Of a stretch of DNA of 64,000 nucleotides, positions 25,967 to 51,314 are shown in pieces (position 1 is the stretch's first letter; each line of letters begins with the position of its first letter). A program made the translations under genes and the position numbers. The DNA lies in assembly GCA_051362555.1 (NCBI GenBank), contig CM120649.1, positions 7,378,001 through 7,442,000 of the forward strand, read 5' to 3'. This DNA comes from Lingula anatina. Its lineage: Eukaryota; Animalia; Brachiopoda. Under the pieces are notes generated by a model. It was not told the DNA's origin. It made no database searches and saw nothing but the letters and a program-made list of their open reading frames with translations.

Positions 25967-28171
25967 GCTACCTTGTTATTATCACACTCGTCTATTGTAT
26001 TTTTAACACTCAATTTAGCGTGTAACCTTCAACTGGTGCACGGAATAAATATACACATAATTATGACCGATACGGTATACAATAGGATTCTATCTAGAGT
26101 TTAAATAACTATGAATATTCTTATTTTTATCGTTAATAACTTTATTTGGCTATTCCATTATGTCTATGTACTTATACAACTCTTCAAGGGTTGCAGAATC
26201 ATTTAATAAAAATCATGATTATTTCTTAGATGTTTAGATATTATATAAAGGGATTTTAAGCGTTCGGTCTTTTCCTTATTATTCTTGTTATGAACAATTT
26301 TCTTTCCTTTTTCGCAGAAAACACCACATTTGTCAAAACCTAATGTCTAATAGAATCACCATGTTCAACAGGTTGTCAGCTTGTTATCGGCCTGTCAAGT
26401 AGCGGCGGAAAAATTGCGCACGGTACCCGTGGGCGACGTGCTTTGAAATCATTAATGATATACTTATCTGTATATAGTGACAACAAGTTTTCTGAGAAGA
26501 AAAATGTCAGGAATATCTCAAACTTTTGACTCGTATTAACCTCCAGGCTGCAGTTACATATGAAAAGAAGTTTTCCTGAAGTTTCGAAAATAAGAATGAT
26601 GGCAATGATGCCATTCTTTAAATCTGCAAAATTTTATTCTAAGTCAGCAGCATTTAGAATAAAATCAGTTGTTATTATGATTGTTATCGGTTTGGATTTT
26701 CGATCTGACAATATTCACGAAGTATTGACCGCTGTCCCCTCCATCAATTACTGAATACACACAAAACCTAAGAAAAACTCTCTAAGGTCTCTTATTATGA
26801 AAAATCTCCCAATTTAAATACATACTATCAAAAACTTACAAATGTATCTTAATTAATTTGATAAATTCAAATAAATCATCAATCTAATCTACAGATTAGG
26901 GCATGTGACATGTTTAGTTGTATGTGGTTCATTCCGTGAGTTCTGGAAATATCTTTTTATTTATCAAAGAGATGCAGTTCAGCGACGATTTGGGTGAGTA
27001 GGCACAATGCGACTTCCACATTACATAATGAATTTGCTCACAAAACAAAATCACTGAAAATTAATTTTATAAATTATAATCGAATTGAAATGGAAGTATT
27101 GATAACGTTATTACAGCCGATTCTATTGACGTTATGGTGTTTTATGGTATTTGATCACGACTGTTTTTTTCTTTTGTGCCATCTTTGGTCTGAAAATAAT
27201 AATAATAATAAAAATAATAATAATAATAATTATTATTATTATTATTATCATTTATAAGTAATAATGTTTTTAAATTCTCGGTCTTTTCTTCTATAATAGT
27301 GTTACAGTTAACAAATCCCTGTCGTTTTCAAAGAAATCACCGTACATGACAAAACATATTGCCCTTCATCACCAATGTCTTCGTGACTTAGGTGTTATTT
27401 CCTGAAAGGCTGTCAAAGGTTTCCAAAGGGTTGTCCTAGTAGCAATCAGAGTGGTCTCATCCTCAATATACTGGTAATTATCTTCCAAGAATACTGATAG
27501 TTCCTTTGGGTTAGATTTTGCTGAAAGTTGTGACGTTAAAATGTTATGAAAATTTAGCTGGCTGGCTATTTTAAGCTGGACGCCCATGTAGATGTAAGCT
27601 GAGGCGTGTGAGCGAAGAACAAGTGGATTTTCAAAAGGCATGGTAAGATAAGATTTTTTTTCTTTTGGTGTATTGATATACTATTAGAAATACGGGGTAT
27701 ATAATATGAGGGCGCGTCGACTTTGCTTGAATGTATAAAGTTACGCTTAGTATCAGTCAACTTGTTTTTAAGTAAGTTGCTGCATCGATCGACAGCGTGA
27801 AAAAGTACGTCACGGAAAACAGTTTCTTGCAAGGCTGTACAAAACGTTGTCACTTGCATTTTTCGAATATAAACGATCTTATATGCCCATATCTTGGGGC
27901 CCAGTATCTCTATGTCAAATCCTAGCTCTTATTGCGAACCTTGTAACATACACTGTAAGCTATGGCATGGAGTCTACTAGTTTTTAAATTCATAATTCTA
28001 TTTTAGAAGCTGCAACTACCGAAATTTCACACTTTGACAAACTGAAATCTCATTTTTTTCTTCAAATTGTGATTCGCAATCTCTTGAGGAAAGAATTACT
28101 TCAGCCGGTACATATATTTTTAATTGATATACAGGTATTAAAAGCTACGTTTTTAGTATTTATGTTTTGCC
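25967..28171 (+). repeat. Non-coding duplication 2, copy A
   Basis: Closely similar to 31152-33343; more diverged fragments at ~33830-34280, ~44865-45030 and ~45450-45980. Confidence 0.9.
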
Positions 28172-30990: not shown

Positions 30991-31151
30991 TTAAGAGGTG
31001 TGAAGTTGCATTTGAACGTTTCTATGGGCCTTCATCGGCAATCGAGCAAATTTACCTAGGAGCTTCCTCCTCTCTTATCGGCAAAGTGTTCAGATGAAAT
31101 TGTTTGTATCTGTCGAGAGAAAGTGGCCGTCACTTGTGTAAATACCGTTCA

Positions 31152-32351
31152 GCTACCCTGTTATTATCGCACTCGTCAATTGTATTTTAAACACTAAATT
31201 AAGTGTGTAACCTTCAACTGGTACTTGGAATAAATATACACATATGAGCGCTATGTACATGTATATAATAGGATTCTATCTAGAGTTTAAATAACTATGA
31301 ATATTCTTTTTTTTATCGTTAGTATATGGCTATTCCATAATGTCTATGTATACTTATCCAACTCTTCAAGGGTTGCCAAATCATTTAATTAAAATCATAA
31401 TTATTCCTTAGAATTTTAGAAATTATATAAAAGGATTTTTTTGTGTTCAATCTTTTCCTTATTATTCTTGTTATGACCAATTTTCTTTCCTTTTCGCACA
31501 AAACACCGCAATTGTCAAAACCTAATGTCTAATAGGATCACCATGTTCAACAGGTTGTCAGCTTGTTATCGGGCTGTCAAGTAGCTGACTGGCGGAAAAA
31601 TTGCGCACGGTAACCGTGGGCGACTTGCTTTGAAATCATTAATGATATACTTATATAGTGACAACAAGTTTTCTGAGAAGAAAAATGTCGGGAATATCTC
31701 AAATTTTTGACTCGTGTTAACCATCAGCTTGTACTCAGTACTTACCTACGAAAAAGACGTTTTCTTGAAGTTTCGAAAATGGGAATGATGACAATGATGC
31801 CATTCTTTAAATCTGCAAAATTTTATTCTAAGTCAGCAGCATTTAGAATAAAATCAGTTGTTATTATGATTGTTATCGGTTTGGATTTTCGATCTGACAA
31901 TATTCACGCAGTATTGACCGCTGACCCCTCCATCAATTACTGAATATACACAAAACCTAGGAAAGTCCTCTATAAGGTCTCTCATTATGAAAAATCTCCC
32001 AATTGAAATGTATTATATCAAAACAAATGTATCTTAATTAATTTGATAGATTCAAATTAATCATCAACCTTATCTAAGATAAGGGCCTGTGACATGTTTA
32101 GTCGTATGTGGGTCATTCCGTGGGTTCTGGAAATAGTTTTTTTTTACTTATCAACAAAATGCAGTTCAGCGACGATTTGGCTGAGTATTTTGTGGCATTA
32201 TGCTCACAAAACAAAATCAATGAAAATTGATTTTATAAATCGAATCAAAATGGAAATATTGATAACATGTTATTACCGCCGATTCTATTGACGTTATGGT
32301 GTTTTATGGTATTTGATCACGACTGTTTTTATCTTTTGTGCCATCTTTGGT

Positions 32352-32445
<94 letters not shown>

Positions 32446-33343
32446 TATCAGTAATAAAGTTCTTAAAGTCTCGGTCTTTTCTTCTATAATAGTGTTACAT
32501 TTAACAAATCCCTGTCGTTTTCAAAGAAATCACCGTACATGACAAAACATATTGCCCTTCATCACCAATGTCTTCGTGACTTAGGTGTTATTTCCTGAAA
32601 GGTTGTCAAAGGTTTCCAAAGGGTTGTCCTAGTAGCAATCAGAGTGGTCTCATCCTCGATATACTGGTAATTATCTTCCATGAAACCTAATATTTCGTTT
32701 GTGTTAGATTTTGCTAGAAGTTGTGACATTAAAATGTTATGAAAATTCAGCTGGCTGGCCATTTTAAGCTGGACGTACATGTAGATGTAGGCTGAGGCGT
32801 GTGAGCGAAGAACAAGTGGATTTTCAATAGACATGGTAAGATAAGATTTTTTTTCTTTTGGTGTATTGATATACTATTAGAAATACGGGGTATATAATAT
32901 GAGGGCGCGTCGACTTTGCTTGAATGTATAAAGTTACGCTTAGTATCAGTCAACTTGTTTTTAAGTAAGTTGCTGCATCGATCGACAGCGTGAAAAAGTA
33001 CGTCACGGAAAACAGTTTCTTGCGTTGTCACTAACATTTTTCGAATATAAACGATCATATATTCCCATATCTTGGGGCCCAGTATCTCTATGTCCAATCC
33101 TAGCTCTTATTGCGAACCTTATAACATACACTGTAAGCTATGGCATGGAGTCTACTAGATTTTAAATTCATAATTTTAATTTTTAATAGCTGCATCTACC
33201 GAAATTTCACACTGAAATCTCGTTTTTTTTTTCTTCAAATTGTGATTCCCAATCTCTTGAGGAAAGAATTACTTCAGCCGGTACATAATTTTAAATTGAT
33301 AAACAGGTATTAAAAGCTATGTTTTTAGTATTTATGTTTTGCC
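31152..33343 (+). repeat. Non-coding duplication 2, copy B
   Basis: Closely similar to 25967-28171. Confidence 0.9.
32355..32443. repeat. (AAT)n-(ATT)n self-complementary microsatellite
   Basis: Direct reading; shorter version at ~27194-27249. Confidence 0.9.
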
Positions 33344-34499
33344 ATCTTAACCATTTTTAAAATTTTGGTGACATTCGAAGTGTCAGGCTATTACTATTTC
33401 CATAATATGATAAATGTAAGAGGGGGCGGTGGAGAGAGAAGTTGTGTTTTCTGGTCACTCTTTTATTGCAACCTCTCGTAAATTATGCCAGGTGTCCCAC
33501 TCGCAGAACAAGGCCAAAGCCTGTTTTGCTGTCATGTTCTTTGCGTACATGTACATGTACTGGTGCCGGTGTTTAATGATATTGAAACTGACTGCAAGAT
33601 CAGGCTCGAAGCTGGGGGAGGGGGGGTGGTTATGAACGAACCGACCTTTTTGCCGGGAAAATTCAAATCAATCATCAAATTTATAGTATTGGAACAACAT
33701 ACATGTATAAAATTTAAAATGTCCAGAATTAAAAAAGTCCATGCCAGGTCGCATATATACATGTAGTCTCCGCCTCACGCCAATGACCCTTAACCTAAGC
33801 CATGTGACTTATTACAGCACATCTCTCCTTTTTAAAGAAATCACTGAAGTAGATGACAAAACATATTGCCATTCATCACCAGCGATCAAAGTGGTCTAAT
33901 CTTCGAAATGTTGGTAATCATCTTCAATGAATCCTGATATTTCCTTTATTGTGTAAGATTGTGCTGAAAGTTGCTACGTTTAAATGTTATGAAAGTTCAG
34001 TTGGCTGCCCATTTTAAGCAGGACGTACCTGTACGTGTACACCGTAGACGTACGCGTAAGCTGGGAAGCGTGAACGAAGAACAAGTGAATTTTCAAAAGG
34101 TATGGTAAGATGAGAATTGTTTCTTTTGGTGTATTGAAATATTAGTAGAAATACGGGGTATATAACAGAGGGCGCGTAGACTTCGCTTGAATGTGAAATA
34201 AGTTGCTGCATCGATCGCGAAAAAGTACTTCACGGAAAACGGTTTCCTGCAAGGCTGTGCAAAACTTTGTCACTAACAATTATCGAAACAATCTTATGCG
34301 CCAATATCTAGTTATTTTTGCCGTGTCATGGTATGTCCTTCAACCATTACGATGTTGAAAATTCTTAGTTTTTAGATGATTTAACGTCAAATAGACCTAA
34401 GTTACACATAATATCAAACTAGTAGACCTACTGCGTCCTAATTTAAAAAATTTTTAAAAACTTTAAAGATCCTATCGAAAAATGTGATCTTAAACAAGT

Positions 34500-34770
34500 C
34501 TGTAATTACAAGCTATTGGGTGCTGAATGAACATTTGACTTACCTGAAGTGATAACATCATGCAAGTTTTGAAAAAAGCTAGGCAGCGAATGTACTTTTT
34601 AAGGAAATTAAACGCTTTTACCAGAAATGTGTCCATTTTAACAAACTTTTATAGGTGTTTGTGTTATAAAAAAAGTATTTTAACTTCTGCATTAGTCGTA
34701 TGGCAAGGGCGTGCAACTGTAGAGAAAAAAAAGCTGGAAGATTTGGTTAAAACAGCAGGAGACAGATCTC
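34500..34770 (+). mobile_element. Decayed 3' fragment of a LINE ORF2 (CR1/L2/Rex-Babar group)
   Basis: KKARQRMYFLRKL...LTNFYR...SILTSALVVWQG resembles the conserved region following the reverse transcriptase. Confidence 0.7.
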
Positions 34771-35608
34771 ACCTCACGTTTTTTTTTATTCAAATTGTGA
34801 ATCTCTTATTTGAGCAGCGAATTACCTTGAGTACATTATTTTAAAGTGAAATAGTATAGTATTTATCTATTAACGTGACATGTCATGTGATATAGATATT
34901 CCAATCACCCTGCCTCATGGGCCTACAAGTCACTGCGAACTTTGTACATGTATCAGAAACAAAAATATTAAAATCTACGTTTTCGGTGTTAATGTTTTAC
35001 CATCTTAAACAATAACCTTTTTTTAATTTTTAGACACATGAACTTTTCTTGGGTAAAAGATCAATTTTTGAAATTGCAGGTTATAGGACTGTGCATTTTC
35101 ACTAAATGCAGCATTGTCTAGAGGTCCTTCAAATCTCTAGATGGTCCCTCTTTCGCTTTCGTGTTAAAAAGAGATTGCGCAGGTATGTTAAAATGATACG
35201 TCTACGACACTTGTTCACCCTCATTCTTCAGCGTTCAAGACATGGATAAAGTGACCAAAAGGAGGCCTAAATTCTCTCTACCGGGGTGACAGGTTAATTT
35301 TTCTCCAGGAATACAACTGTAGCCGTATGAATGTATTTTCTTCACTCGTGTTCGTCTTTTGTTTTGTCACGTGGGCGTCATCTTACTCTCTCATTCCCAT
35401 TGGTCATCTTTCCCGCCTTTCGTCGCTTATAAATATCGTCGCCGCCCTTTTTCTGTGATTGTTCTTTGCTCATCGCTCTTTATATATTTACAGATGGTAT
35501 GGAATAAATAAGAACAAAGAGAAATAGACTTTGTTGTGAACCGTTGCACAACGAAATATGTTTGCATCTGTTTTTTTCTTGACATTTTTTTCTCGTGTCC
35601 AGCAAATA

Positions 35609-35917
35609 TTTACCTCCGCCAAGGGGTTATGTTTTCACCCCTGTTTGTTTGTTTGTTTGTTTGTTTACCTGTTTGTCATCAACATAACTCAAAAAGTTAT
35701 GGATGAATTTCAATGGAATTTTCAGGGTAGGTCAGAAATGGGTTAACTTAGAAGTGATTTGGTTTTGGTGGTGATCCGGATAATAATCAATCAATAATCA
35801 ATAATCAAAAGTAAAAAAACTAAATCATTATAGAATGAAATTTTAGGGGTGAAACGGCATTGGGTAGAGACTTTTCTACCTGGGCGGAGGTCTGCGCTCT
35901 CGGAGTGCTTTTCTAGT
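35609..35917 (+). mobile_element. Non-autonomous Helentron-associated element (HINE/DINE-1-like)
   Basis: Subterminal IR acctccgcc / ggcggaggt, (GTTT)n near the 5' end, 3' hairpin gcgctct-cg-gagtgc, CTAG followed by a T-run; a degenerate relative at ~51503-51630. Confidence 0.8.
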
Positions 35918-36577
35918 TTTACTTGGAATTATTTTTGCACCACTCAGCTGTCCTCAGGTACCGTGTATAGAGTACGCTCTAAACATATGTATGAGTAGAT
36001 TCTACGACAATTCCCCCCCCCCCCCCCGGACAATTCCCCCCAGGACAATCCCCCCCCCGGACGATTCCCCCCCAAGAAATATATATTTATATACAAATAT
36101 AAAGTAGAAAGTGTAAAGTTTAAACCATTTCATCCATTTTATTAATATTTTTAGTGTGATAATATAACTTCATCATGAAACAAATTATTTTATAACAAAT
36201 TCCCTTTTCATTGAGTACAAGTACAGGAAGATTTATTAAGTATGTATTCGAAGTATAACCACCTATCATTCAGGTAAAAGTGGGGTAAACAGATGAACAG
36301 ATAAACAGATATTTTATAAATATTTTTAGTGTGGTGGGTGGTGGTCAAGCAATTAAAAGTGACAAATAGTCACAGGGATACCTGGATAAGCGAGAAAATC
36401 TGTTCACCCCACCTCTCCCTAGAGATGAACCTTGATTCAAGACTTACTGAATCAAGGGGTGGGGGGGAAAATAAAGCAATTAAAATTAACAGTTACTTCA
36501 TCAAAAGGCTACCTGGATGAGTGAGATCATCTGTTTACCACTCCTTTACCTGGAGATATACAGTGGTAGTAATAATT

Positions 36578-36812
36578 TTGTTTCCGTTGTACACCGGTTT
36601 AACAAAGTTCGAAATGTTTTAATCCCTATCTGGTGAATAGAAGGGGGCGGACAAACAATGGAGGGCCGTATAAATCCCTTCAAAATTCGAACGCACAAAC
36701 ACAATATCTTAGGTGGAATAACACGAGCGCGACAATCCGTTGTAACTACATGTAGGTGTAATTAACAGCAGGATACATCAACCAGAAGGTCCCCATTGTT
36801 TGTTGCGGCGAT
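36578..36812 (+). repeat. Direct repeat R, copy 1
   Basis: gtttccgttgtacac...aggatacatcaaccagaa...gtttgttgcggcg also present at 41725-41997. Confidence 0.9.
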
Positions 36813-36816
36813 AGGA

Positions 36817-37305
36817 TGTTCCCGGTGGCCACTTGTCCCTGGTGTCCCCCCTGTGCCCGGTGTTCCACTCGTTGCTGGTGGGCCACTTGTACCTGGTGGT
36901 CCTCCTGTTCCTGTTGGCCCTGTTTTGCCTGGTGGCCCTACTGTTCCAGGTGGACCCCCTGTTCCCGATGGGCCCCTCTGTTCCTAGTGTCCCGGAAGTT
37001 CCTGGCGGTCCTGCTGTTGCTGGTGGTCCTCCTGTTGCTGACGGTCCTCCTGTTCCTGGTGGTCCTCCTGTAGCGTGTGTCCCTCTGGTTTCTGGTGGGC
37101 CTCCTGTGCCCTCTGGACCACCTGTGCCAGAAGGACCTGCAGTACCTGGTTGTCCACTTGTGCCTAATGCCCCCTTTGTCCCTGGTGGTCCTCCTGTTCC
37201 TGGCGGATCTCCCGTTCCATATGGACCCCCTGTACCTTGTGGACCACCTGTCCCTGGTGGACCCCCTATAACCGGTGGACCACTGGTTGTATGTGCTTAG
37301 GACCT
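36817..37305 (-). pseudogene. Decayed copy of the GPP-repeat exon
   Basis: Shares diagnostic variants with 39424-40347 ([20 protein letters not shown]), has a frameshift near 36970 and no clear acceptor; lies beyond a minus-strand AATAAA at 37554-37559. Confidence 0.7.
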
Positions 37306-37760
37306 CTTGCACATGTGACTCTTTGCTGTTCTACAAATGTATTCTGTATGTACAATAACAATAATAACACAGTATAATGTATTGCCTGTGTTTAATAATG
37401 TTCTGACAAGCGCATGACATGTTTGGCACATATGATTCATTTATGTCTAAAAAAAAAGGCTCATTTCAAGAACGTTTTTGTGATCAGAAACCATAAAATA
37501 ATTCAGCACAACCGACGGACTATTTTTGTAATCACAGTTTTAACTAAAGAGTTTTTATTGTATACCAAACCTCAAAATTACTTTGACCTCACCCATCAAA
37601 ACTTACTTTGTTAAAACAGTCCCTATAATATAATTACATCGATCTTGTATCTCCTTGGAAAGTGAGTTTTTAAATCCAGTTACAAGCTAAGCTTAAATAA
37701 GTACATGGTAATTAATTCCCCGCGATTGCAGTAAATGGTTGGAGACCTTCTCAGGTTTAA

Positions 37761-40646
37761 CTAACATAAAAGTTTTTGTCGCAATTTAGCGATGGCGGCT
37801 TTCTCTCTGCGTCGCGCCCGGAAGTAAACAATGTATATGGCAATGGTTCCAATGAGCACCGTCCCTATTATGCAGCCTAGGGTGATTTGGTGTTTTATAG
37901 CCGCATCCAGCTTTGCCTTAAGGTCTGTGGATGAAACATTAAAATCGGTGTAGACAGATATCAAAGTGATTGTAAAACAGAACAGATTAGGAAAAGTTCA
38001 AATAATGATTTACTTTGTAAGTTTCTGATTGAAGTGAACCTGAGTAATATTGTCAATCATGTTTTGGAAATTTTAAATTTTTCACTTAATCCCAATTCAA
38101 ACTGAAAGTGTGCCTGTGAAAGCTTTCACCTCAACACTTGGGAATCCATCAGCCATACGGAAGTTATGAGACAGTGTATAGTGAACAGTTTAGTGAGAAC
38201 TGATCACTATTAAACTGTCCCAGAGCTGGAAAACTTTGTGCCACCCCTCACCGTCTCACCCCAGTTCTTTTTAAGTGAGGTCCCCGGCCCTGATTGAATG
38301 ATCGTGTGCCTCTGTGGAAGTGAAAAGTTTAAAATTTTCTCAGCACGGCTTAAGTTTGTTTCATTGTCTTCAAGTGATTCATTTAATAGACACTAGATAC
38401 TTACTCGTCATAGACTTATTTAAAATTAATTTAATATTTTTGCTTTACTCCCTGTAAAGAGAGACAATTTACGAAAATTCGCCCGTTGCCACTCCTATAT
38501 ACATTATTATATATGCTCTATATGCACAACAGGAGTAGTAAAACGTGAACAGAGACAGAGAATGAGCGAGAGAGGTTGACAAAATGCCCCACAAACCTGG
38601 GCTTATATCTTCTGCATCTATTAATTTTCCGTGAGGCCCGTCAACTGGTACGTGTTGCATCCCAGCAGTAACAGCAGAACTCGTGACCACTGAAGGGGTA
38701 CCCGGTGGACTCAGCTGTCTTCCAGGACGCATTTGCACCATTGTCATGGTATCACCCTTCTGTCCTTTCTGTCCAATGGCACTCATCCCCTTCATTCCTT
38801 TTATCCCCTTCATTCCTTTCATGCCCATTTCTCCTGTCGCACCAAAATTCCCTACATTTCCCCCCATTCCCCTCTGACCTTTTTGACCCTTTATGTCACC
38901 AGGCGGTCCGACCATACCTTTCAAACCTGTAATATTGACATCCTTAATGTGTCAATACATTATTCACAATAAGTGAAATCCAGCTCATATAATACTAGTT
39001 CTCGGCGATTTCATAAAATGTGATTGTTATTAATTGTTCTTTCTAGAAATCCATTTTATGCCAGTTAGACTTTACCAGGTGTACTAATGGACATCCTGGG
39101 AAATGTTTAATTTTATCCCCAGGGTGCAATCATTACCCACGCCCTTTTCCATACATTATTTAACTACAATATCTTCTATATTTCCCTGTCATCAAGTCGG
39201 TTAACTAGGCATAAGGGGTGGTAGTTTGAGTGTGTAAACAATATTGTTGAATCTGGAGAATTTTTACCTGGAAAAATATTGATTTCATGCTTCCCTCCCT
39301 TAATCAAATTTAGGCAGCTTTCAGGTATGACCGACTGAATAACCATACTGCGGATGAAGTTGAAGAAAAGTTGTCTATATAACAAAGGTAATGTTCAGTT
39401 TGATTTATTTCCTTTGGTCTTACCTTTGGGTCCTTCTGTACCTGGGTGTCCACCAGTACTTATTCCTTGTGGACCTCCGGTTCCTGGGGGACCGCCTGTT
39501 CCTGTTGGTCCTCCTGCACCTGGTGGCCCTCCAGTTCCAGGTGGTCCTCCAGTTGCCTGTGATCCTCCTGTCCCTGGTGGTCCTCCTGTCCCAGGTGGCC
39601 CTCCAGTTGCCGGTGGTCCTCCTGTCCCTGGTGGCCCTCCAGTTCCAGGTGGCCCTCCAGTCGCTGGTGGTCCTCCTGTCCCAGGTGGCCCTCCTGTTGC
39701 CGGTGGGCCACTTGTCCCTGGTGTCCCCCCTGTGCCCGGTGGTCCACTCGTTGCTGGTGGGCCACTTGTACCTGGTGGTCCTCCTGTTCCTGTTGGCCCT
39801 GTTGCTCCAGGTGGACCTCCTGTTCCCGGTGGTCCCTCTGTTCCTGGTGGCCCCTCTGTTCCCGGTGGTCCCTCTGTTCCCGGTGGCCCTTCGGTTCCTT
39901 GAGGGGCTCCTGTACCTGGTGGTCCTCCTGTCGCTGATGGTCCTCCTGTTCCGGGGGGTCCTCCTGTACCTGGTGGACCACTTGTTCCAGGAGGTCCCTG
40001 TGTACCTGGTGGTCCACTTGTTCCTAATGCCCCCTTTGTCCCTGGTGGTCCTCCTGTTCCTGGCGGCCCAGCTGTGCCTGGAGGCCCTCTTGTTCCAGAT
40101 GAACCTCCTGTGCCAGGAGGCCCTCCTGTACCTGGTGGACCACCTGTACCTGGAGGGCCATCTGCACCTGTTGGGCCTCTTGATGTTCCTGGCGGGCCGC
40201 CTGTTCCTGGTGGTCCTCTTATACCTGGTGGGCCCCCTGTTCCTGGTGGGCCCCCTGTTCCTGGCGGCCCAGCTGTGCCTGGAGGCCCTCCTGTTCCTGG
40301 TGGACCACATGTCCCTGGAGGCCCTTCTGTTACCGAAAAACCCACAGCTGAAAATCATCGTAAAAAGACAGTAGAGTTGGGCGTTAAATTGATCTACGAC
40401 TGAAAAATTTAATTAACTAATAAAATTAAATATATAAATGCTATAACAACTGCTTTTTTATCTTTTACAAATTTTATTTTATTTCAATTTAATTACTAAA
40501 TAGTAAAATTGCTTACATGCGGTCTCAGGTAGTTCTAATATGGCCGGGTCGCAAGAGGAAATGCCTGTAGAGTAATAGGAAATACACGTGTAGAATTTAT
40601 CAAATTATCAGATACGCTGTCATACGTTTTCTCCTCCTGTATAAAA

Positions 40647-40693
<47 letters not shown>

Positions 40694-40761
40694 TATTTCT
40701 TACCTGATACGTCACGAACCAAAGCACACAGGATTACAATTTTAAGCCAGTGTAGCTGCAT
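37761..40761 (-). CDS. Type I transmembrane collagen-like protein, ~507 aa; exons 40704-40761, 40517-40564, 39424-40347, 38597-38926, 37761-37924
   Basis: All four introns are GT-AG and phase 1, and the joined frame is open (1524 nt): signal peptide [20 protein letters not shown], ~300 aa of (GPPGT[G/E/S])n, a GMK/GQK-rich Gly-X-Y tract, [24 protein letters not shown], basic tail RARRREK. Confidence 0.85.
40647..40692. repeat. (GATA)n microsatellite in intron
   Basis: Direct reading of the sequence. Confidence 0.95.
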
Positions 40762-41166
40762 CCTTCTTTCTATCTGCTCTGAGTCTGATTAATTATGTTT
40801 TTAACAAGGAGGTGTCTCTTTCAGCTGTTGGACAAAAGAAGAGTGCAATATATTTAGCTCAAACATAGAAAAACAAAGCAGTATCAAAGCCAAAGAGTAT
40901 TTTAGCGCACGATTATTCGTTTGTTTTTACACATTTAAGTGTAGCTATTTTCAGCAACATAGACCTTTATCTTAATTTGTTTACTTATATGAAGCTCCCA
41001 TCTAAGTTAAAATTGAATTTATTTGTGAAATAAATAATTGGAAAACGGTTAGCTTTGAATTGACGAAAGATGAAAACATAAGACACTGGTGTTAAAATGT
41101 CAGTTCAAGTGCATTTAATTACATACTGGGTATATAGATATATATACAGTTTGTTATTTACCTTAC

Positions 41167-41270
41167 CGTTTCTTACAGCTACTTCTGTGCGTCTATTCTG
41201 TTTGGTGGTGCGGAATATTCACTCCGTCTGAACAATGACGCCTCTAGTTAATCTGTTTCACGTTTATAGT
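41167..41270 (-). promoter_or_regulatory. Possible TATA-like box and non-coding first exon of the collagen-like gene
   Basis: Minus-strand ctataaa near 41263-41269, donor G|GTAAGG at 41166, acceptor ttttgtccaacag near 40826 upstream of the ATG. Confidence 0.4.
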
Positions 41271-41724
41271 TTATGACACAGGACATAATACTTTTCAATT
41301 TTACTATAACCTTAGGTCAAATGTTGCTCATCCCTCGTCACATGCCGTGGGCAGTATTGTGTATAGAGTACACAAAAATTTTGCAACACTTTGCCTTTCA
41401 TCTGTATTGATATATATTTTGATTGATTTTCTATTGCTATTTATTTCGATTGTGTATTTGTCTAAAGTCTTCAAATATGTGCATGTTACATCGTTATCTC
41501 AGTGATTTCATTTGAAGAATATTTCACAATCCTGGTGTGCCAGTCCCTTTTATCAACCCTGTAACACGCAAATGCGTTTTTATATATCTAGGTGTGTCGT
41601 TAAACGCTTTGAATAAAATAATAACAGTGAACAACGGGACACAATGCACAAGAGGAGCATATTAAAACTGAATGTGCGGAATGAGTTAGCAATCCTGCTT
41701 AATTACAATGGAAGTAACATTTAT

Positions 41725-41997
41725 GTTTCCGTTGTACACTGGTTTAACAACGTTTTAAATGTTTTAATCCCTGTACTGTGAATAAAAGGGGGCGGGCAAA
41801 CAATGGAGAGACGTATTAATCCCTTCAAAATTCAAACGCACAAACACAATAGCTTAGGTGGAATAACACAATACTTAAGACGAGTGAACCCCTTAACGCC
41901 GGTTTCTGTGGTCAAGGGCGACAATCAACTGTACCTAGGTGTAATTAACAGCAGGATACATCAACCAGAAAGTCCCTATTGTTTGTTGCGGCGGTAG
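41725..41997 (+). repeat. Direct repeat R, copy 2
   Basis: Similar to 36578-36812, with ~40 extra bp. Confidence 0.9.
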
Positions 41998-42127
41998 GAT
42001 TATAGCTTTAAGAGGCTATACCGCGTGCTACCGCGTGCCACTAAACCGTCTCCCGTAGCGAACTGTCCTTTTGTTCACTAGCTTGGCACGCGCAGCTGAT
42101 CATATTTTAAGTGTTGCTAGCCAAGAA

Positions 42128-42295
42128 CAGGCCCGTAACCAGCAATTTCAAAAGGGTGGTTCTTTTTCTGAAAAAGTGGACCTTTTCCCATAAAAACCTC
42201 TTGTACCTAAATCAAATTTTACCCAGAGTGGACCTTTTCCCAGCAAAAGGGGCGATTCTTTCGAACCCCCAGAACCCCCCCTGGCTACGGGCCTG
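42128..42295. mobile_element. hAT-like MITE with 6-bp TSD
   Basis: caagaa|CAGGCCCGTAACCAG...CTGGCTACGGGCCTG|caagaa. Confidence 0.8.
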
Positions 42296-42769
42296 CAAGA
42301 AGATATAACTTCCTGTACTAGCAAACTGCTAGTTAAATTTGGTATCAGTTATTTAATTCAATATGAAGTGTTCCGTAGTCAAAAACTGAATTTGATTAAC
42401 ATGCATAAGCATCAGCATTGTGCATCAGCATGATCAACAATTCACCCTGTTTCAAAATTCTTATTGCAGATAGTATTTATAAATTATGAATGATGATGGC
42501 CAAAAATTTTGAAGATTAAAGATGCTCCGTATATAAATTTCCATCCTCGCGACCTGTGTAAAAAATAAAGATTAAAAGTAACAAAGAAAGCAACATTTTT
42601 TTTAATATTTACAGAACAAGCTGAAATGTAGCCTCAATTACTAAAAAAATTTATTTGATATGGACAATTGGCTTGTACCAGTCTTATTTTATTAACATTC
42701 TCCATCGTCACCGTTGAATTAACATTATTATTTTACAGCACTAACCTTATTTAACAATCTAATTGTTTA

Positions 42770-44200
42770 GGCCTGGTTTAAGTTTGTTTAAGAAATGATA
42801 GCTGTCGTGTTTAACAATAGACTGCCAGCTATAGTAAGATCCCCCTCCTCTTTTAACCGATGTCATTCATTGTTAATTGCCCGTAATTTATATAGTGTGA
42901 TCACACTGTCAGTCTTCCCCCTGTTACACGCTGGAGTTAAATTGTCCTTGGGCCACTGCTCGATATTTTTTCCTATTCTGTTGTTTATATAAACTTTTTC
43001 ACTTCTTTTCAAATATTTTCATCTCATTTTCCATTGTGCGCTCCGAGAAACGGATTATTATTTCCCACAACAGAATAAGTTTTAAAGCAATTTGTCAGCT
43101 CATAACTATGACATGGCGCCCTTTTTTCTGGTTGCTGTTTAAAAATGGACATTAGTTTGTCGAGGTTTAATGCTTACCCTAACGAAAAAGTCCTATAGGA
43201 TCCTTTAGGGCTTTTTCGTAAGGGTAGCTCTTATAACGTTATATTTATGTGCATCTAAACGATAAGATGTCAGTTTTATACTTGACTGTTATTGCCCGGT
43301 GTCGCACGTATGCTTTCTTACAACAGTGATCTAAAACAGGTCGCTAGTGGATTTAAATATAGCAAATCTGTTCGACAGGACGTTTCTCCACAGCGGCCGA
43401 ACACACAGTGATTGTACAGGCCTTGGTTTTAGCTTGTTTGAAATGATAACAATCACGTTTAACAACAGAGTGTGAGCTATAGTAAGACCCCCCTCTTCTT
43501 TAACCGATGTCATACATTGTTAATTGGCCGTACTTTATATCGTGTGATCACACTGTCAGTCTTCACATGTTACACGCTGGAGTAAAATTGTCCTTGCGAC
43601 ACTGCTCGATATTTTCTCCTATTCTGCTGTTTATATTAACCTTCTCATTTATTGTTGTATAATATCATCTCATTAACCATTGTTCGCTCTTAGAAACGGG
43701 GGATTTAGCCATTTTTCTCATAACTATGACAGGGCACCCTTTTTTCTCGTTGTTGTTTAAAATTGGACGTTAGTTTGTCGAGGTTTATTGCTTAGCTCTT
43801 ATCGCGTTATATTTGTGTGCATCTAAACGATAAGATGTCAATTTTTCACTTCACTGTTATTGCCCGGTGTCGCACGTATGCTTTCTTACTACAGTGATAT
43901 AAACAGGTCGCTAGTGGATTTAAATATAGCAAATTGAAAAAATCTGTTCGACAGGACGTTTCTCCACAGCAGCCGGACACACAGCAATTGTGAAAGCGTG
44001 ATTTTAGCTTGCTTGAGATTGATAACAATCGCGTTTAACAATAGATTGCGAGCTATAGTAAGAACCTCCCCCTCCTCTTTAAGCGACGTCACAATTAACA
44101 GTACTATAATGTAAAGGCGACAAGTTATTAGATTGTCAGCCTTTTCCCTTGTTGCACATTGGTCTTCGATTATCATTTCCCTACTGCTACATATTAGCTT
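42770..44200 (+). repeat. Tandem array of ~600-650-bp units (about 2.3 copies)
   Basis: gtttaacaa.aga....gctatagtaaga..cccctc recurs near 42809, 43457 and 44033; ttattgcccggtgtcgcacgtatgctttctta near 43289 and 43857. Confidence 0.85.
43177..43224. mobile_element. 48-bp palindromic mini-insertion with TA duplication
   Basis: ta|ccctaacgaaaaagtcctataggatcctttagggctttttcgtaaggg|ta; the next tandem unit has the empty site gcttagctctt (~43790). Confidence 0.85.
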
Positions 44201-47089
44201 TTATTGGCATTTTTTTTAAAAAAATCGTATTTATTTTCAATACTTTTACTACATTAGTCTTAGTGTGTTATGAGAAACGGGGGGATTTTTAACACAGCAA
44301 AAGAAATGGGAGTGGGGGGTTCAAGATCAAAAGGATTTTTTTAAGGAATTGTCTAATAGGTTGCTGTGTTATTTAAACCAAAACGATTTCCTGAAAATCA
44401 AATTAAAAATTAATGTCTATTCCAAAAAAGTGTACATTAATACATCAATGAGTTTGCATTTAATGTACTTCCTCCTTAAGGGTTATGTGCTGAATATAAT
44501 GGCACACCTTGATGCGAAACAGTCTATTGTTTCTTCCACCTTGGGTCCCTTATATTTAAGTACTATGTTGTATTACTCATATTATCCATTCCATTTGACA
44601 CTCTCTCTGTTTTTCTCCCTTCCACTCTCTCTTGTAAGGAGGGGAAATAATAAAGCACCAAAATTTTGCATCGATCTTCAGAAAAGAAATGAGTCAATGA
44701 ACCAGTGGGCTGGTCCACAACGTCCGATATAGCAAAATTAAATCAAATGACAGCTGGCACAATTTTAACTGCAGTTAGCTAGTGTCGCTAAAGATATAAT
44801 CCGCGCTTGAAGCTGTTGAACAAAAGGATGGTTCGCTACCGTTTGTTTACATAAGTTCTCTAAGGGGGCGTACCTACCCAGGCGAACAGGGGATTAGGCT
44901 AGTCACTATAAGCCGTCAACAATCGTTTAGCGACCCTATCATTATACACTCCCTCTATTGTATTTTCCACCGCAATAATCACAGTGTAATCTTCAAATGG
45001 TCCACGGGGTAAATATACTAGAACGGTATATACTTTGTTCAGATTTTTAATAAAATGTTCTGTACTTCTATCTCGAAAACTTTATGTACTTGTACTCCAT
45101 GAAAATAAATTGTTTGATAAAATTATTATCTATCCTTGATTTGCATCATCACACTAAGAAATATTCAGAAAATGGATGAAAAGATTTGAATTTTGTACTC
45201 TTAACTTTATATTTGTATATAAATATATATATTCTTCGGGGGTAATCGTCCGGGGGGGGGGGGGGGGGATTGTCCTGGGGGGGATATTGTCCGGGGGGAA
45301 TAGTCCGGGGGGGGGGGGGGATTGTCCTGATACCGTATGAGTAAAATATCGCAAGGGCAATGTACATGTAGAAGCCAATCAGAGGTTTAAGCTAGATACA
45401 ACACCTGTTCGGTATTTTGTCATATCATGCTTATTTTCGAGCATGATACCGTGCCTAACAAAACATATTGCCGTTCATCACCAATACCTGAGTGACTTAG
45501 GTGTGATTTCCTGCAAGGCTGTCAATAGTTCCCAAATTGGGTTGTTCAAGTAGCGATCAAAGTGGTCTCCTCCTCGACATGCTCGTGATTATCTTGTTAT
45601 GACCCAAACAATCAACGGTTAATAGGCTTCTTAACAGCATGTCAGCTTGTTATCGACCCGTCAAAAGGTACTGTAGCTGACAGACGTCATAACTGCTTTG
45701 TTGTGAAGTTATAAGTGACATATCTGAGACGGAATATGTCGGAAGTATCGCAAAATTTAAATCATGTTTACCATGTTGTGCGGTAGTCGTGTATGTCTTT
45801 ATAGGTACAGTACCTATACAAGCTGTACGACTTAAGTTTTGATTGGAAAAGTGCCAATGCCGATCAATCAGTTTACTATCCTCGACATCTGCAAAAAGGT
45901 ACTCTTAGTCAGAAGCATTTGAAAAAGTCATCAGTTGTTATCATGATGGTTATTTGACTTTTGATCTGACAAATTAATGTTCCATCTGAAAAACGACTTA
46001 CCAAAACCAAACCAAAGTGTACCTCACTGAATAAAAGCACTCTTTCTTTAAAGGCTAGCAATCATATTAAGATACAAATGTTAAATTGTTCATTAGTATG
46101 GGATTTGGTTGGTCTTCTTGACATTCATGAGATATACATGTACCAGTGTACCGCCTTGTGGTCAGTCCCCTTGAATTTGTAAAATTTTGTTTCAACTTTG
46201 AAATTTTGTATGAAAATACCGTAAAATGCGCTATTTTGTATCTAATAGTCGTTTGCTATTATTTTTTCATTTAATGTTTCGACATTTCTTGATTTTTAAA
46301 TAGGCGCGTTTCTTTTCTTTATTGGCTTATCTTCTGAAAACATTACTTGTCATTCAGTTGTTTTGTAAAAATATATACCGGGTATATTGTGATCAGTAGT
46401 GAACTGCACTACATGTAAAACGTCCAATGTTACTCGAAGGTGAAACTCATATCGGAATTTCGTTTTTTTACGAGTTTCAATCGATCACATCAGGGAATAT
46501 AAACTAATATATATATAGTCGTAAGTCTAATGTGTCAAAGGCAATATCATAAAGTTATAATGAATAAAATTTAATTGAATTACCATGGACAGTTGCGGAT
46601 TTAAAGTTTACAGTTCGGGACATCTTTTTCTTTTTTAATCCACCAAATATATATTCTTACTAGTCCAATCATTTTGCACATTTAATTTCATGAGTCCAAT
46701 AATTTGTTGATATTCATCTTAAGTAAAGGAAAAACCATGTGTTATGGTAGATAATCTTGGTACATACCAGTACTTGTCGTTAAAGAGAGTCGTATTCTAA
46801 TCAATAGGATGTGGCTATCTCCAGTGATTCAACAATTAGTTAGATGAGATCCACCATTGATGATCATTTTCCCCTTGTGAAAAACCTAAAAAAAATTCCA
46901 GTAACGGTAATTTCCACAATAACAAGACCCAAGACGCCTTTTCTCTTTCTTATTTACAGGTCGAATTGTATGTTACTCAAGAGTACCAACGAAGGACTGA
47001 ACACTGCTGAGGAGTTATAGTAAGCGATATTAAAGATATTAACTCACGCTCTGTTCTGCGCCACCTGTAAGCGCTACTGCTGCACGAAA

Positions 47090-50000
47090 ATGTTTTTCTT
47101 GAGAAAGATAGAGATTATCCGTTTGATTTTATGTGGGCTGATATTTCTTCATCCGACGCTAGAAAAAGGTCAATCCACTAATTTCACACAAAAGTCAACC
47201 AATCTGGGGATATGGACGCTTGAGAGATTTCGGAGGGACTCATCATTTGCTTGGGGTGCAACACCAGAAGAAACAGACAAAAAATTGCCAGCTACAGAAG
47301 ACGGGATACTCGATGAAGTCACACAAGAGTCACCTACTACTGAGGGTGGAATGAATGTGGACGTCACACAAGAGTCCCCTACTACTGAGGGTGGAATGAA
47401 CGCGGAAGTCACTCAAGTGTCGCCCACTACTGACGGTGGTATGAACGTGGAAGTCACACAAGAGTCCCCTACTACTGAGGGTGGAATGAACGTGGAAGTC
47501 ACACAAGAGTCCCCTACTATTGAGGGTGGAATGAACGTGGAAGTCACACAAGAGTCCCCTACTACTGAGGGTGGAATGAACGTGGACGTTACAAAAGAGC
47601 CGTCCACTACTGAGGGTGGAGTGAACGTGGACGTCACACATGAGCCGTCCACTACTGAGGGTGGAATGGACTTGGACGTCACACAGGAGTCGCCCACTAC
47701 TGAGGGTGGAATGAACGTGGACGTCACACAAGAGTCGCCCACTACTGAGGGTGGAATGAACGCGGAAGTCACACAGGTGTCGCCCACTACTGAGGGTTTT
47801 ATGAACGTGGAAGTCACACAAGAGTCTCCCACTACTGAGGGTGGAATGAACGCGGAAGTCACACAGGTGTCGCCCACTACTGAGGGTGGAATGAACGCGG
47901 AAGTCACACAAGAGTCGCCCACTACTGAGGGTGGAATGAACGTGGACGTCACACAAGAGCCGTCCACTACTGAGGGTGGAATGAACGTGGACGTCACACA
48001 AGAGTCCCCCACTACTGAGGGTGGTATGCACGTGAACGTCACACAAGAGTCGCCTACTACTGAGGGTGGAATGCCCGTGGACGTCACACAAGAGTCGCCC
48101 ACTACTGAGGGTGGAATGAACGTGGAAGTCACACAAGAGCCGTCCACTACTGAGGGTGGAGTGAACGTGGACGTCACACAAGAGTCGCCTACTACTGAGG
48201 GTGGAATGCCCGTGGATGTCACACAAAGGTCCACCACTGTTGAGGGTGGTATGGACGCGGACGTCACACAAGGTTCGCCTACTACTGAGGGTGGAATGCA
48301 CGTGGACGTCACACAAGATTCGCCCAATACTGAGGGGGGAATGCACGTGGACGTCACGCAGGAGTCACCCAGTCAAGAGGATACATTGCATGAAAAACCG
48401 GACAACAGGAGGGAAACCTCTTCTATCCCAGAAGTGACTCTCATGCCGTACAGATGGCTCTGTGCGAGTGAAGGTAAATACAGCATCCAGGTTCACTGCA
48501 ACTGCGACCCTCTGTGTGTTCTCTATGATGACTGCTGTTATGGTATGACAGAAAATGCAACTGTGTGCGCTGCCTCTGTCAGATTAACAAGGACACACGA
48601 CACAATGCAATCTATTCCTGAAACTAACGAAACAGAAACTCAAAGTGACAGCACCACCTCGATTGCATTCCGTAATAAAACAGCTTCTTTGATACGGGGG
48701 AAAGAAGAAGTCGACCCTGTGTCTATTTTGCTGGCACATAAAAGCTCCTGTAGAAGAAGTCCCACTTTAAGTCAACAAAACCGACAAACCACATTACCCT
48801 ATGTGGATAATTTTGGACTGAGTTTCTGGATGGTTGACCAGTGCCCGTCGTCTTGGCTAGAAGAAGAAAGCGTTGACAAATGTACTTATATCTCAAATAC
48901 TAGCCTCACAGAAGACGTGGTATTGTACCAGCCAGTCACCGACTCAGATTCAATGATCACCTTCAGAAACAAGTACTGTGCAACTTGTCATGGTATTAAA
49001 AACGGCGGGGAACCATGGGAACTCGCCGTCTATTCCACTACATACGTACCAGTTGACTCCATTGCAAATTGCAGCTCCTCGGATTGCGTGTTAAGAAAAC
49101 TCAAAGAAAGCGGAAGTAATTTAATTTTCGAGCCAAAACCGGAGTGGCATTTAAGAACATGCTTCAGGGAAGCCGAGGACGATGACTTCGGTCCTTGCAA
49201 GTTCGGTTTTATCAATGGAAGCCTACTCCGTGTACCTCGTCCACTCCCCCTGCACTCAGCTTTAAGAGATGCATGTATGGCGTACAACAATCCCGTTGTC
49301 GTCGGCGGTTTTGATAAAAGTTACAAGAACTTCCACTGCATGATCTGTTATAGAGGTGATTCTACATTCTGCGAAGGTGAGTGGTGCGTTTAAATATGAG
49401 AAACCCCATGTGTAAAAATATCAAAACCGTGCATCATTGGCGTGAATAATTTTCATTAAGCTTACTTGCCTCCCTCGATTTCGCCAATAGTAGGTATCAA
49501 AACGAAAATGGCTAAATGTAATTGATATTGACTTTGTGATGTGCGATATCTTTTGATTCTGTTTATGTTTGTGAAAATTACATGCATAAATGCAGGTTTG
49601 TGAAATTGCAGTTCAAATTAGTTTTCATTTCTAATCCGGAAAAAGCAACAACTGATTGTGTATTGACGGGAAAACTGAAATGAGCTACTGAGAAAATCGC
49701 GCCTTTTTCGAGATATGATGTAAGTCATTATCATTCCGATATAAGGTATAATTATTACCTTTTGCATCTTGGGATTGAGAGTCACTTTAATGTAGTACGC
49801 TTGTTTCATTATGTTTTATATATAAAAAGCCATTGTTCAGATCGAGGATCAAATAAGTAGCAGGTAAAAATCGTGAATCCAAGGAAGCGAATCTAAAACA
49901 CTTCACATTTTCTCATAAGACAAATATAAAGTCGACTTACCAAGGAATAAACCGAACCAGTTGCTTGATGTCCTTTGGTATCTCTATTGGTTACACTTTT

Positions 50001-51314
50001 TGATACCTTATGGTGGCGTTTGGTCGGGTTTTGTGGCAGCTTTAAATTCGGCTGTAAATGGAAGCACGTAGCACGTATTAGGTCACCACAAATGGCAGTT
50101 TCATTTTTTAATAGGCTTAAACGTCTCACACGCTCCCTCGAGTTGCTAGGGAGTAATTAACTAATTAAATAGCTACTCAAGGAGGCGTGTCACACAGTTA
50201 AGCTGATTACACTGAATACATTTTAGCGAGAATACCCTGCAGGGTTGGTTCAATTCAGCTGGTACGATATTTGAATCTTAACGCGGTCCTAAGTCAAAAT
50301 ATAATTCTAGTTGTTCAAACTACACCTACACGATCATGTTTGTCAAGCTTAAATGTCCACTAATTAATTCACAAATGTTATATTCAGATCACTATTCCAC
50401 ACCGCCACTAGAAAGATTCTTCGGTCTTTCTCTCCGCGCTCTACTGTATGTGGGAGATCAAGACAAGAAACAGAGTGATGACGTCATGACTAGGGTGAGA
50501 AGAACGGACTGCAATAATCATAAATGATGAGGATGATAATGAAAATTGCATTTAGATATAAATAGATTGATTGATAGATTGATAGATAGATTGTAAATAA
50601 CTACTTTATCAATTCATGTTAATATTCTAATATGATTGTCAGAAGTTTCTTCCCGATTTTATTGATGTTAACTGCTGCTCGGACCGTGAGTAGTAAAACT
50701 ATGCATGCACAATATACATCTGCACACGTGCCTTTTTCCAGCCTGTAGATCAGCAGATAGTGTGCCCCCCTGGTTTTATTCCTGATGCCCAGGGCTGCCG
50801 CCCCCTTATGTACAATTTCACGGTGGTGCGGTCGCCCGTTCTCTTACATTTTGAGCCGTGTGGCTGGGTTCCAACACCAAGAGAGGGCTGTAGAGATATC
50901 AAAAGTGATGGTCGATTGATAGCTGCACTGAGAGCGGTGCGGGCACTTTTTCTTGCCTGTAGTCAGACACCCAGCGCGGATAACACGTCTATCGCCTTTG
51001 TCCTCAAAACAATAGTCACTCTTCGCGTAAGACTAGCCCACTACGAAGAAGTTCGCAATGTTTTTGACCAAGTACAAGCATGGATGGAAAATGCTCTGCA
51101 AAACGTGCAGTTGAAGATATCCGGAGGGCCAGTGGGTATACGTTCAGGATCGTCCTCTGCCTGCATGAAGAACGTCACGAACCACAACTCCGTGACGCCA
51201 TTTAATGGAGCGACCACGCTCTCAACCCCGAAGCAGAGCCGCGGAAACATACCTGTCGGTAACGTTACACTTTTAATGTTAATGGCGCTGGTGGCAGCGG
51301 CGTGGGATTTCTAG
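47090..51314 (+). CDS. Secreted, probably GPI-anchored mucin-repeat protein with somatomedin-B-like Cys-rich domains, ~988 aa; exons 47090-49376, 50388-50494, 50742-51314
   Basis: Hydrophobic N-terminus, RFRR site, 23 x 15-aa repeats, CNCDPLCVLYDDCC motif, FRNKYCATCH and YKNFHCMIC modules; donors G|GTGAGT and AGG|GTGAGA with phase-consistent acceptors; hydrophobic C-terminal LLMLMALVAAAWDF without a cytoplasmic tail; 5' UTR acceptor at 46959. Confidence 0.85.
47318..48370 (+). repeat. Coding 45-bp minisatellite (VTQESPTTEGGMNVD), 23 full units plus a partial one
   Basis: Counted from the translation. Confidence 0.95.

What the first reader, a model, noticed from the sequence alone, without database searches (positions are those of the whole stretch)
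35989..45343. Candidate animal Pack-MULE carrying a complete intron-containing membrane collagen-like gene
Seen: inward-facing inverted repeats of ~240 bp (ggacaattccccc subrepeats, then gaa.tatatatttatatacaaatataaagt...tttcatccatttt...gagtacaagtaca). Both ends lie the same distance from the first GACAAT (GATTCTAC vs GGTATCAG) and are immediately flanked by the same 9-mer GTATGAGTA. Between them are no transposase ORF, a full five-exon gene with candidate promoter, a decayed copy of one of its exons, and nested repeats. Established: long G...C TIRs with 9-bp TSDs typify Mutator-like elements; gene-carrying Pack-MULEs are well known in plants and usually carry gene fragments. Inference: a non-autonomous MULE captured or mobilised a whole, apparently intact cell-surface gene. 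Caveats: the TIRs are visibly diverged, and sequence on both sides of the right TIR resembles the 26-28 kb repeat, so local rearrangement splitting a small MITE is an alternative.
Basis: partly seen in the sequence, partly recalled or inferred. Interest (0 to 1): 0.85.

Follow-up and report, generated by a model that had tools for sequence, protein, structure and literature searches.

The report
Whole gene packed inside brachiopod transposon
In a lamp shell (Lingula), one copy of a common 860-base transposon has been split open by 8.5 kb of DNA holding an intact reading frame for a predicted membrane-anchored collagen-like protein; the gene was likely copied in by DNA repair after the transposon had landed, and there is no evidence yet that the loaded element ever jumped.

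Summary
In detail: about 240-bp inverted repeats (79% alike), a perfect 9-bp duplication in the same register at both ends, no transposase, and five coding exons giving a 507-aa protein (signal peptide, Gly-X-Y repeats, one TM helix). The host is likely Lingula. New result: contigs of 4 of 4 DNA runs laid join position ~36555 directly to ~45028. So the TIRs belong to a repeated ~863-bp element, and this copy carries an 8,472-bp insertion bounded by a 6-bp direct repeat, with nothing of the element lost. Look-alike short elements of another animal have the same end layout and 9-10-bp duplications, which fits a Mutator/Foldback-type family; no transposase was found. The duplication therefore dates the short element's arrival, not a move of the gene. 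Most likely (0.55) the cargo was copied in by template-switch repair. Formed elsewhere and transposed here is the main rival (0.27). Diverged copies of the gene exist, and a relative is weakly transcribed; expression of this copy, the donor locus and an empty site were not seen. Animal Pack-TIRs and a fly Pack-MULE are published; this one is unusually large and complete.

The parts
35989..35997 (+). left copy of the 9-bp target-site duplication
35998..36234 (+). left TIR: 8-bp G-start terminus, four GAC(A/G)AT(T)Cn subrepeats, AT-rich core
36235..36561 (+). inner left part of the short element, ending in the 6-bp junction repeat at 36556-36561
   Evidence: high contig depth and joints to 45027/45028; junction; inner repeats
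36562..45027 (.). cargo, 8,466 bp between the two 6-bp repeats (8,472 with one repeat), absent from the short form
36559..36817 (+). interspersed repeat Y, copy 1, cut short and fused to the decayed exon; starts at the cargo's left edge
   Evidence: 90% to copy 2; depth 20,671 at 36672 in X1
36817..37285 (-). decayed, frameshifted copy of part of exon 3
37761..37924 (-). coding exon 5: predicted TM helix, basic stop-transfer stretch, short tail, stop
   Evidence: RNA reads of a diverged relative at about 37792-37995
38597..38926 (-). coding exon 4: Lys/Met-rich Gly-X-Y stretch and stalk
   Evidence: RNA reads of a diverged relative
39424..40347 (-). coding exon 3: (GPPGTG)n repeats
   Evidence: Pfam Collagen E 3.6e-12
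40517..40564 (-). coding exon 2
   Evidence: predicted
40704..40761 (-). coding exon 1: start codon and predicted signal peptide
   Evidence: predicted
41176..41268 (-). TATA-like match and donor-like site; possible non-coding first exon (untested)
   Evidence: no RNA read laid there
41704..42000 (+). repeat Y, copy 2
42128..42295 (.). very high-copy short element with short inverted ends, nested in the cargo
   Evidence: loose ends at both edges and skip joints; ends
42761..44305 (+). tandem triplication of a unit of about 600 bp (89% alike)
44741..45027 (+). high-copy repeat Z at the cargo's right edge, also found at the head of the 26-kb and 31-kb local units
45028..45075 (+). 6-bp junction repeat (45028-45033) and inner right part of the short element
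45076..45334 (-). right TIR
45335..45343 (+). right copy of the 9-bp target-site duplication
   Evidence: one X1 contig spans 45313-46895

Best explanation
A short (about 863 bp) non-coding transposon, likely of the Mutator/Foldback type, sits here with its 9-bp duplication and is split by 8.5 kb of DNA that holds an intact five-exon reading frame; the DNA was likely copied in afterwards by template-switch repair of a break inside the element, and the loaded unit has probably not moved since. Shown: the two arms, the duplication, the cargo-free short form elsewhere in the genome, the 6-bp repeat at both cargo edges with no loss of element sequence, and the open reading frame. Inferred: (1) a transposase encoded elsewhere inserted the short element; (2) a break at the inner ATATAC site was repaired from a donor, probably a tandem cluster of this gene family in the same neighbourhood, entering at repeat Y and leaving in repeat Z over a few matching bases; (3) the result is an extra gene copy between intact ends, which a matching transposase could move in principle. 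The protein would be a type I membrane protein with a Gly/Pro/Thr stalk, likely a trimeric, glycosylated cell-surface spacer or adhesion tether (inference from composition only).
For: Short form: 4 of the 15 joints shown (343 found) skip 8,468-8,500 bp from 36530-36558 to 45027-45031, in all 4 runs laid, at depths 48-865; the 36555-45028 joint has a 6-letter overlap. Nine RNA reads of X20 leave the window at 36562 and continue with letters that align better to the right arm (score 29) than to the cargo (16) (weak, other window places score up to 31). Junction repeat at 36556-36561 and 45028-45033, chance 4e-4. The break is internal, 301 bp from one end of 863. This fits the gap-filling pattern of Tan et al.: microhomology in 67.6%, median loss 4.6% of the element, 56.9% within 15 kb of the parent, 1.4% multicopy. 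Contigs that match the window's cargo with 0-1 differing letters (five in X1, 81-90) are no deeper than flank contigs (79, 88), so there is no sign of near-identical extra loaded copies. The cargo's right end and two inverted pieces at 42044-42588 match the 25.6-26.1 kb unit, and the right flank matches the same unit, which points to a local origin. At 11 of 309 positions of the left arm, 80% or more of RNA reads from other copies carry another base (counted by hand from the 40 of 103 rows shown), against 7 differences in 333 between this gene and its nearest other form: compatible with element first, cargo later.
Against: No donor copy of the gene lies in the window, 36 kb to the left or 18 kb to the right. 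Gene bins are about 2.3-4 times deeper than flank bins in X1 (282-507 against 109-132; one bin 106), so the other copies could be loaded elements rather than a donor (the tool warns that depth is no copy number). Repeat Z is high-copy (depth 30,000-60,000), which weakens the local-origin argument. The one well-studied animal Pack-MULE, Ssk-FB4, did not form in place. The cargo is about 38 times the published median of 224 bp. No listed contig spans either cargo junction (32 of 30,571 pieces shown). The divergence comparison mixes individuals and partly coding sequence.
Confidence: 0.55

Rival explanations
1. True mobile Pack-MULE: the cargo was captured at another locus (fork stalling and template switching) and the loaded 9.3-kb element was then transposed here, making this 9-bp duplication; the extra gene copies are sister insertions.
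For: Perfect duplication and both ends intact. No donor in the window. Gene region deeper than the flanks, with a 2%-diverged form of 38772-39104 at twice the depth of the window-identical contigs. Precedent Ssk-FB4, a Foldback/MULE-type element with 9-10-bp duplications.
Against: The duplication is equally explained by the short form. Window-identical cargo contigs sit at single-locus depth. The cargo shares sequence with its neighbourhood. Only 4 Pack-TIRs (1.4%) were multicopy in the published survey; a review states that transposition efficiency drops above 6 kb of cargo. No empty-site joint among the 15 of 343 joints shown, which is weak.
Confidence: 0.27
2. Local block move: the gene is native to this neighbourhood, and an adjacent segment was moved, not copied, into the resident short element (circular intermediate, or duplication followed by deletion).
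For: Blocks inside and outside the right arm are partly colinear with the 26-kb unit (44811-45018, then 45887-45975). The region is full of local duplications.
Against: The left flank (35700-35997) and the first 104 bp of the right flank show no similarity to that unit, and one block (45448-45595) is out of order. Other, 2%-diverged forms of the gene exist, as copying predicts.
Confidence: 0.1
3. The cargo is a second mobile element nested in the short one, and the 6-bp repeat is its own target duplication.
For: Exact 6-bp repeat with no loss. The cargo begins exactly at the shared start of repeat Y.
Against: The cargo ends are neither inverted nor direct repeats (scores 26 and 22). No partner for either end in the window. 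Other copies of repeat Z run on past the junction (6 contigs). No coding remnant.
Confidence: 0.05
4. Assembly artefact: an 8.5-kb contig was joined into a repeat copy by mistake.
For: Both junctions lie in high-copy repeats; no listed contig spans them.
Against: It needs two wrong joins at the same 6-bp site that keep the matching duplication. One X1 contig does join the right end, the duplication and the flank.
Confidence: 0.03

Closest known systems
Single-copy animal Pack-TIRs made by gap filling (Tan et al. 2021, PMC8277862; abstract and sections 7-10, 12, 14 read)
   Same: Host DNA inside a short non-autonomous TIR element; internal breakpoint; short matching bases at the junctions; little or no loss of element sequence.
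   Different: Whole multi-exon reading frame. Probable MULE-type ends, of which that survey found none in reference genomes. Donor not located here.
Drosophila Ssk-FB4 Pack-MULE (same paper)
   Same: Foldback/MULE-type ends with 9-10-bp duplication around a nearly whole intron-containing membrane-protein gene.
   Different: Ssk-FB4 is shown at three loci with different duplications, is expressed and has a known parent; none of that is shown here. The cargo here appears to include the 3' end and upstream DNA as well.
Aedes aegypti Muta1 and its non-autonomous derivatives, type 2 Foldback MULEs (PMC5499845, PMC5225508; passages read)
   Same: TIR over 100 bp made of a short terminal motif plus tandem subterminal repeats; 8-9-bp duplication; derivatives with varied inner DNA including host gene fragments.
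   Different: I did not compare sequences with Muta1. The arms here are only 79-84% alike and the 8-bp termini differ, against 97% in Muta1. No autonomous partner found.
Plant Pack-MULEs (as summarised in PMC6431247, passages)
   Same: Gene DNA between long TIRs with a 9-bp duplication, no transposase.
   Different: Mostly 1-2 kb with gene fragments; whole genes are called exceptionally rare.

Membership tests
MULE (Mutator-like) non-autonomous element | TIR longer than 100 bp | tested here: met
   about 240-260 bp, 79%; definition
MULE (Mutator-like) non-autonomous element | 8-10-bp target-site duplication | tested here: met
   perfect 9-mer here; look-alikes L006 and L009 have 9 and 10 bp with one mismatch in the same register, 2 of 3 inward-facing pairs among 24 loci. 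Only one duplication seen for the Lingula family itself.
MULE (Mutator-like) non-autonomous element | Autonomous partner with a MULE DDE transposase sharing the ends | not testable with these tools
   no genome held; no transposase frame in the element; the long frames of the 24 look-alike loci were listed but not scanned
Type 2 Foldback element | TIR built of tandem subterminal repeats | tested here: met
   four to five GACAAT-Cn units per end, shared with the 24 loci, which were found by that motif
Pack-TIR / Pack-MULE | Non-element host DNA between the two ends of one element family | tested here: met
   short form without cargo in 4 of 4 runs; gene in the cargo
Pack-TIR / Pack-MULE | Identifiable parental copy without TIRs | tested here: inconclusive
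   diverged forms of the gene exist in contigs and RNA, but their location and flanks are unknown; none in the window
Mobilised (multicopy) Pack-MULE | Loaded unit at two or more loci with different duplications, or an empty site in other haplotypes | tested here: inconclusive
   no empty-site joint among 15 of 343 shown; window-identical cargo contigs at single-locus depth; gene bins deeper than flanks
Type I membrane collagen-like protein | Signal peptide, Gly-X-Y repeats, single C-terminal TM helix in one reading frame | tested here: met
   predicted from sequence; longest unbroken Gly-X-Y run 27 triplets
Type I membrane collagen-like protein | Spliced, expressed mRNA from this copy; triple helix | tested here: inconclusive
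   no splice joint; 2 of 256 laid reads were 99% or more alike; helix not tested

The most novel reading that the evidence does not exclude
A 9.3-kb Mutator-type element in a brachiopod carries a complete, working gene with its promoter and has spread it by transposition, so that a Lingula-specific family of membrane-anchored collagen-like proteins was amplified as transposon cargo; it would be the largest whole-gene animal Pack-MULE that I found described, and the first in a lophophorate.
Probability: 0.2. Interest if true: 0.68.

Novelty: new member of a known kind. Interest (0 to 1): 0.38.

Why it matters
Published animal Pack-TIRs are mostly fragments of a few hundred bases, and the survey that found them stopped at 5 kb (10 kb tried in humans only) and at genomes hosted by UCSC. 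This case shows a whole multi-exon reading frame with flanks, 8.5 kb, inside a short, abundant element with both ends and the duplication intact. Because the cargo-free form is common and the species is heterozygous (1.6%, PMC4595640), the order of events can be read from haplotypes: empty site, short element, loaded element. That directly tests gap filling against capture followed by transposition. If the unit never moved it is one large local duplication, of modest interest.

Tried and rejected
Whole-genome search: no genome held, so no genome-wide pairing of TIRs. First gene model: I read exon 4 through to a stop at 38469, got a weak hydrophobic tail (1.13) and doubted the membrane anchor; RNA reads at 37.8 kb led to the real exon 5, and the doubt is withdrawn. 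Protein searches for the gene: none at E 1e-20 with exon 3, none at E 0.01 among longer proteins with exon 4 read-through; the profile search gave 150 hits of at most 54% identity, mostly over the Gly-X-Y stretch; the Atlas gave no usable hit for exon 5 and generic low-recognition hits for exon 4. Low complexity makes these blanks weak. No RNA holder was listed for the stretch. Exons 1-2 and the upstream region had no RNA cover; the four runs were read in part (6-30%) and tissues are unknown. An exact TIR pattern found nothing in metagenomes; the relaxed one found nothing in viral contigs. Rfam: nothing. Simple tandem duplication with a break in the element: rejected, because the cargo neither begins with the right arm nor ends with flank plus left arm. 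Two unrelated half elements: rejected by the matching 9-mer. A Tc1-like or Polinton-like reading of the cargo ends (motifs recalled from memory): no inverted partner. Copy numbers from depth: the single-haplotype depth could be about 60 or about 85 in X1, so I did not call the cargo hemizygous. X1-X3 share many contig ends and may not be independent; X8 is clearly diverged. Paper searches listed no report of this element or of a Lingula Pack-MULE; supplements were not read, and the repeat annotation of PMC13121700 could already hold the short family.
Full report
Host. No genome is held for this window. A sulfotransferase elsewhere in the window has as best hit a Lingula anatina protein at 93%, the next species at 41% or less; that protein matches the two window copies at 97% and 93%. 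The host is therefore likely Lingula. Earlier notes on this genome say the same; none concerns this element.

The observation. The arms 36022-36234 and 45298-45076 align at 78.9%, far above any other place in the window (260 against 53). The 9-mer lies 8 bp outside the outermost subrepeat at both ends and nowhere else on that strand; the chance is about 1.6e-5 for one register. Five exons on the minus strand, joined at GT-AG introns of phase 1, give 507 aa: signal peptide, about 300 aa of GPPGTG repeats, a Lys/Met-rich Gly-X-Y stretch, a stalk, a TM helix and a short tail (Pfam Collagen). My first model missed exon 5 and wrongly doubted the anchor. No other frame has a Pfam hit at cut-off.

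The family is short. Contigs of four DNA runs were laid on 34000-47000. Of 343 joints 15 were shown; four of them skip 8,468-8,500 bp from 36530-36558 to 45027-45031, and every run has at least one, at depths of 48 to 865. The left and right parts are far deeper than the flanks (about 12,000 and 16,000 against 110-130 in X1; the right bin includes another repeat). Joined at the 6-bp repeat ATATAC, which stands at both cargo edges, the two parts make 863 bp. So this is one copy of an abundant short element with an 8,472-bp insertion and no loss at the insertion point. Three of the four joint rows are marked 'between: not known', and I cannot tell whether one of them is the other allele of this site.

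What kind of element. A motif scan of metagenomes returned 24 loci with the same subrepeats. Nearly all have an 8-bp, mostly G-start terminus before the first unit, and the two ends of one element differ, as here. Of 3 inward-facing pairs, 2 (L006, L009; 442 and 530 bp between outer units) have duplications of 9 and 10 bp with one mismatch in the same register. Long TIRs, subterminal tandem repeats and 8-10-bp duplications are the stated marks of Foldback-type MULEs (PMC5499845 and PMC5225508, passages). Without a transposase the assignment stays structural.

How the cargo came in. Both edges lie in other repeats. Repeat Y begins at 36559 and shares TAC with the junction repeat; other copies of repeat Z run on past 45018 and carry a similar TATAC a few bases later. 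The cargo ends are not repeats of each other. An internal break, short matches and no loss are what Tan et al. describe for gap filling without transposition. Inside, the order repeat Y, decayed exon 3, whole gene, repeat Y suggests a donor that was a tandem array with deletions (inference). Pieces of the cargo and the right flank match the same local 26-kb unit, which suggests a nearby donor, but repeat Z is high-copy and the left flank does not match. No donor is in the window.

Has it moved? Not shown. In X1, five contigs match the cargo with 1 differing letter in 1,806 (and 3 gaps) at depth 81-90; two flank contigs have 79 and 88. A form of 38772-39104 with 7 differences has 171, and most gene bins are about 2.3-4 times the flank bins. 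So there are other, about 2%-diverged copies, but no near-identical extra ones. Whether those are the donor or sister insertions cannot be read from these tables. No empty-site joint was among those shown. One X1 contig, with 22 differences and 9 gaps from the window, carries the right end, the duplication and the flank, so the end is present at this site on a diverged haplotype. The diverged run X8 holds gene sequence at about 90-96% identity, with unknown flanks. Depth is no copy number by the tool's own warning, and X1-X3 may not be independent.

Expression. Four RNA runs, read in part, gave 46, 32, 92 and 86 reads on 36250-42050, most on the element's arm. X18 and X20 have a few reads on exons 3, 4 and 5, none on exons 1-2, and no splice joint. 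The exon-4 reads differ at several fixed places and 14 of them run into a paralogue-like sequence at 38716. A relative of the gene is thus transcribed at a low level; this copy is not shown to be. Protein searches found no close relative. Lingula is known for tandem-duplicated, lineage-specific collagens (PMC4595640, passages), but those described carry EGF or COLFI domains, which this protein lacks.

Comparison and verdict. Animal Pack-TIRs are known: 370 in 100 genomes, median cargo 224 bp, 1.4% multicopy, none of MULE type in reference genomes, plus the fly Ssk-FB4 family with a nearly whole gene (PMC8277862). Mosquito MULE derivatives also carry gene fragments. This locus works like a single-copy Pack-TIR and meets the structural tests for a Pack-MULE; the parental copy and mobility tests are inconclusive. 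Its size and completeness are unusual. My paper searches listed no report of it; supplements were not read. I put capture in place at 0.55, capture then transposition at 0.27, local move at 0.10, nested element at 0.05 and misassembly at 0.03. Novelty: new member of a known kind. Interest 0.38.

Noticed in passing
window 14653-15943 and 22985-24343: Two tandem galactose-3-O-sulfotransferase copies (93% alike); the first is split over two reading frames near 14800. They match the L. anatina protein P0001 at 97% and 93%.
   Followed up: partly
window 47024-49390 and 50697-51311: Long frame with about 23 copies of a 15-aa acidic Thr/Glu repeat followed by Cys-rich parts; looks like a mucin-like secreted or anchored protein.
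   Followed up: no
window 25603-28171, 31146-33343, 33823-35039, 45448-45975: Non-coding unit present in four partial local copies (94% between the first two), headed by a high-copy repeat.
   Followed up: partly
window 35603-35920: Very high-copy repeat ending in a hairpin and CTAGT, like non-autonomous Helitron-type elements (label recalled from memory).
   Followed up: partly
L001-L024: Short elements with the same GACAAT-Cn subrepeats, an 8-bp G-start terminus and unequal ends in host DNA of several metagenomes; the group seems widespread in invertebrates.
   Followed up: partly
window 38863: All contigs counted at this place in 4 of 4 runs carry another base than the window; a private change or an assembly error in exon 4.
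   Followed up: no
window 59166-59631: Self-complementary stretch of about 470 bp (73%), possibly another foldback element.
   Followed up: no
L008: Frames that resemble an ATPase and an integrase of a Polinton-like element (judged by eye from motifs) beside a look-alike TIR.
   Followed up: no
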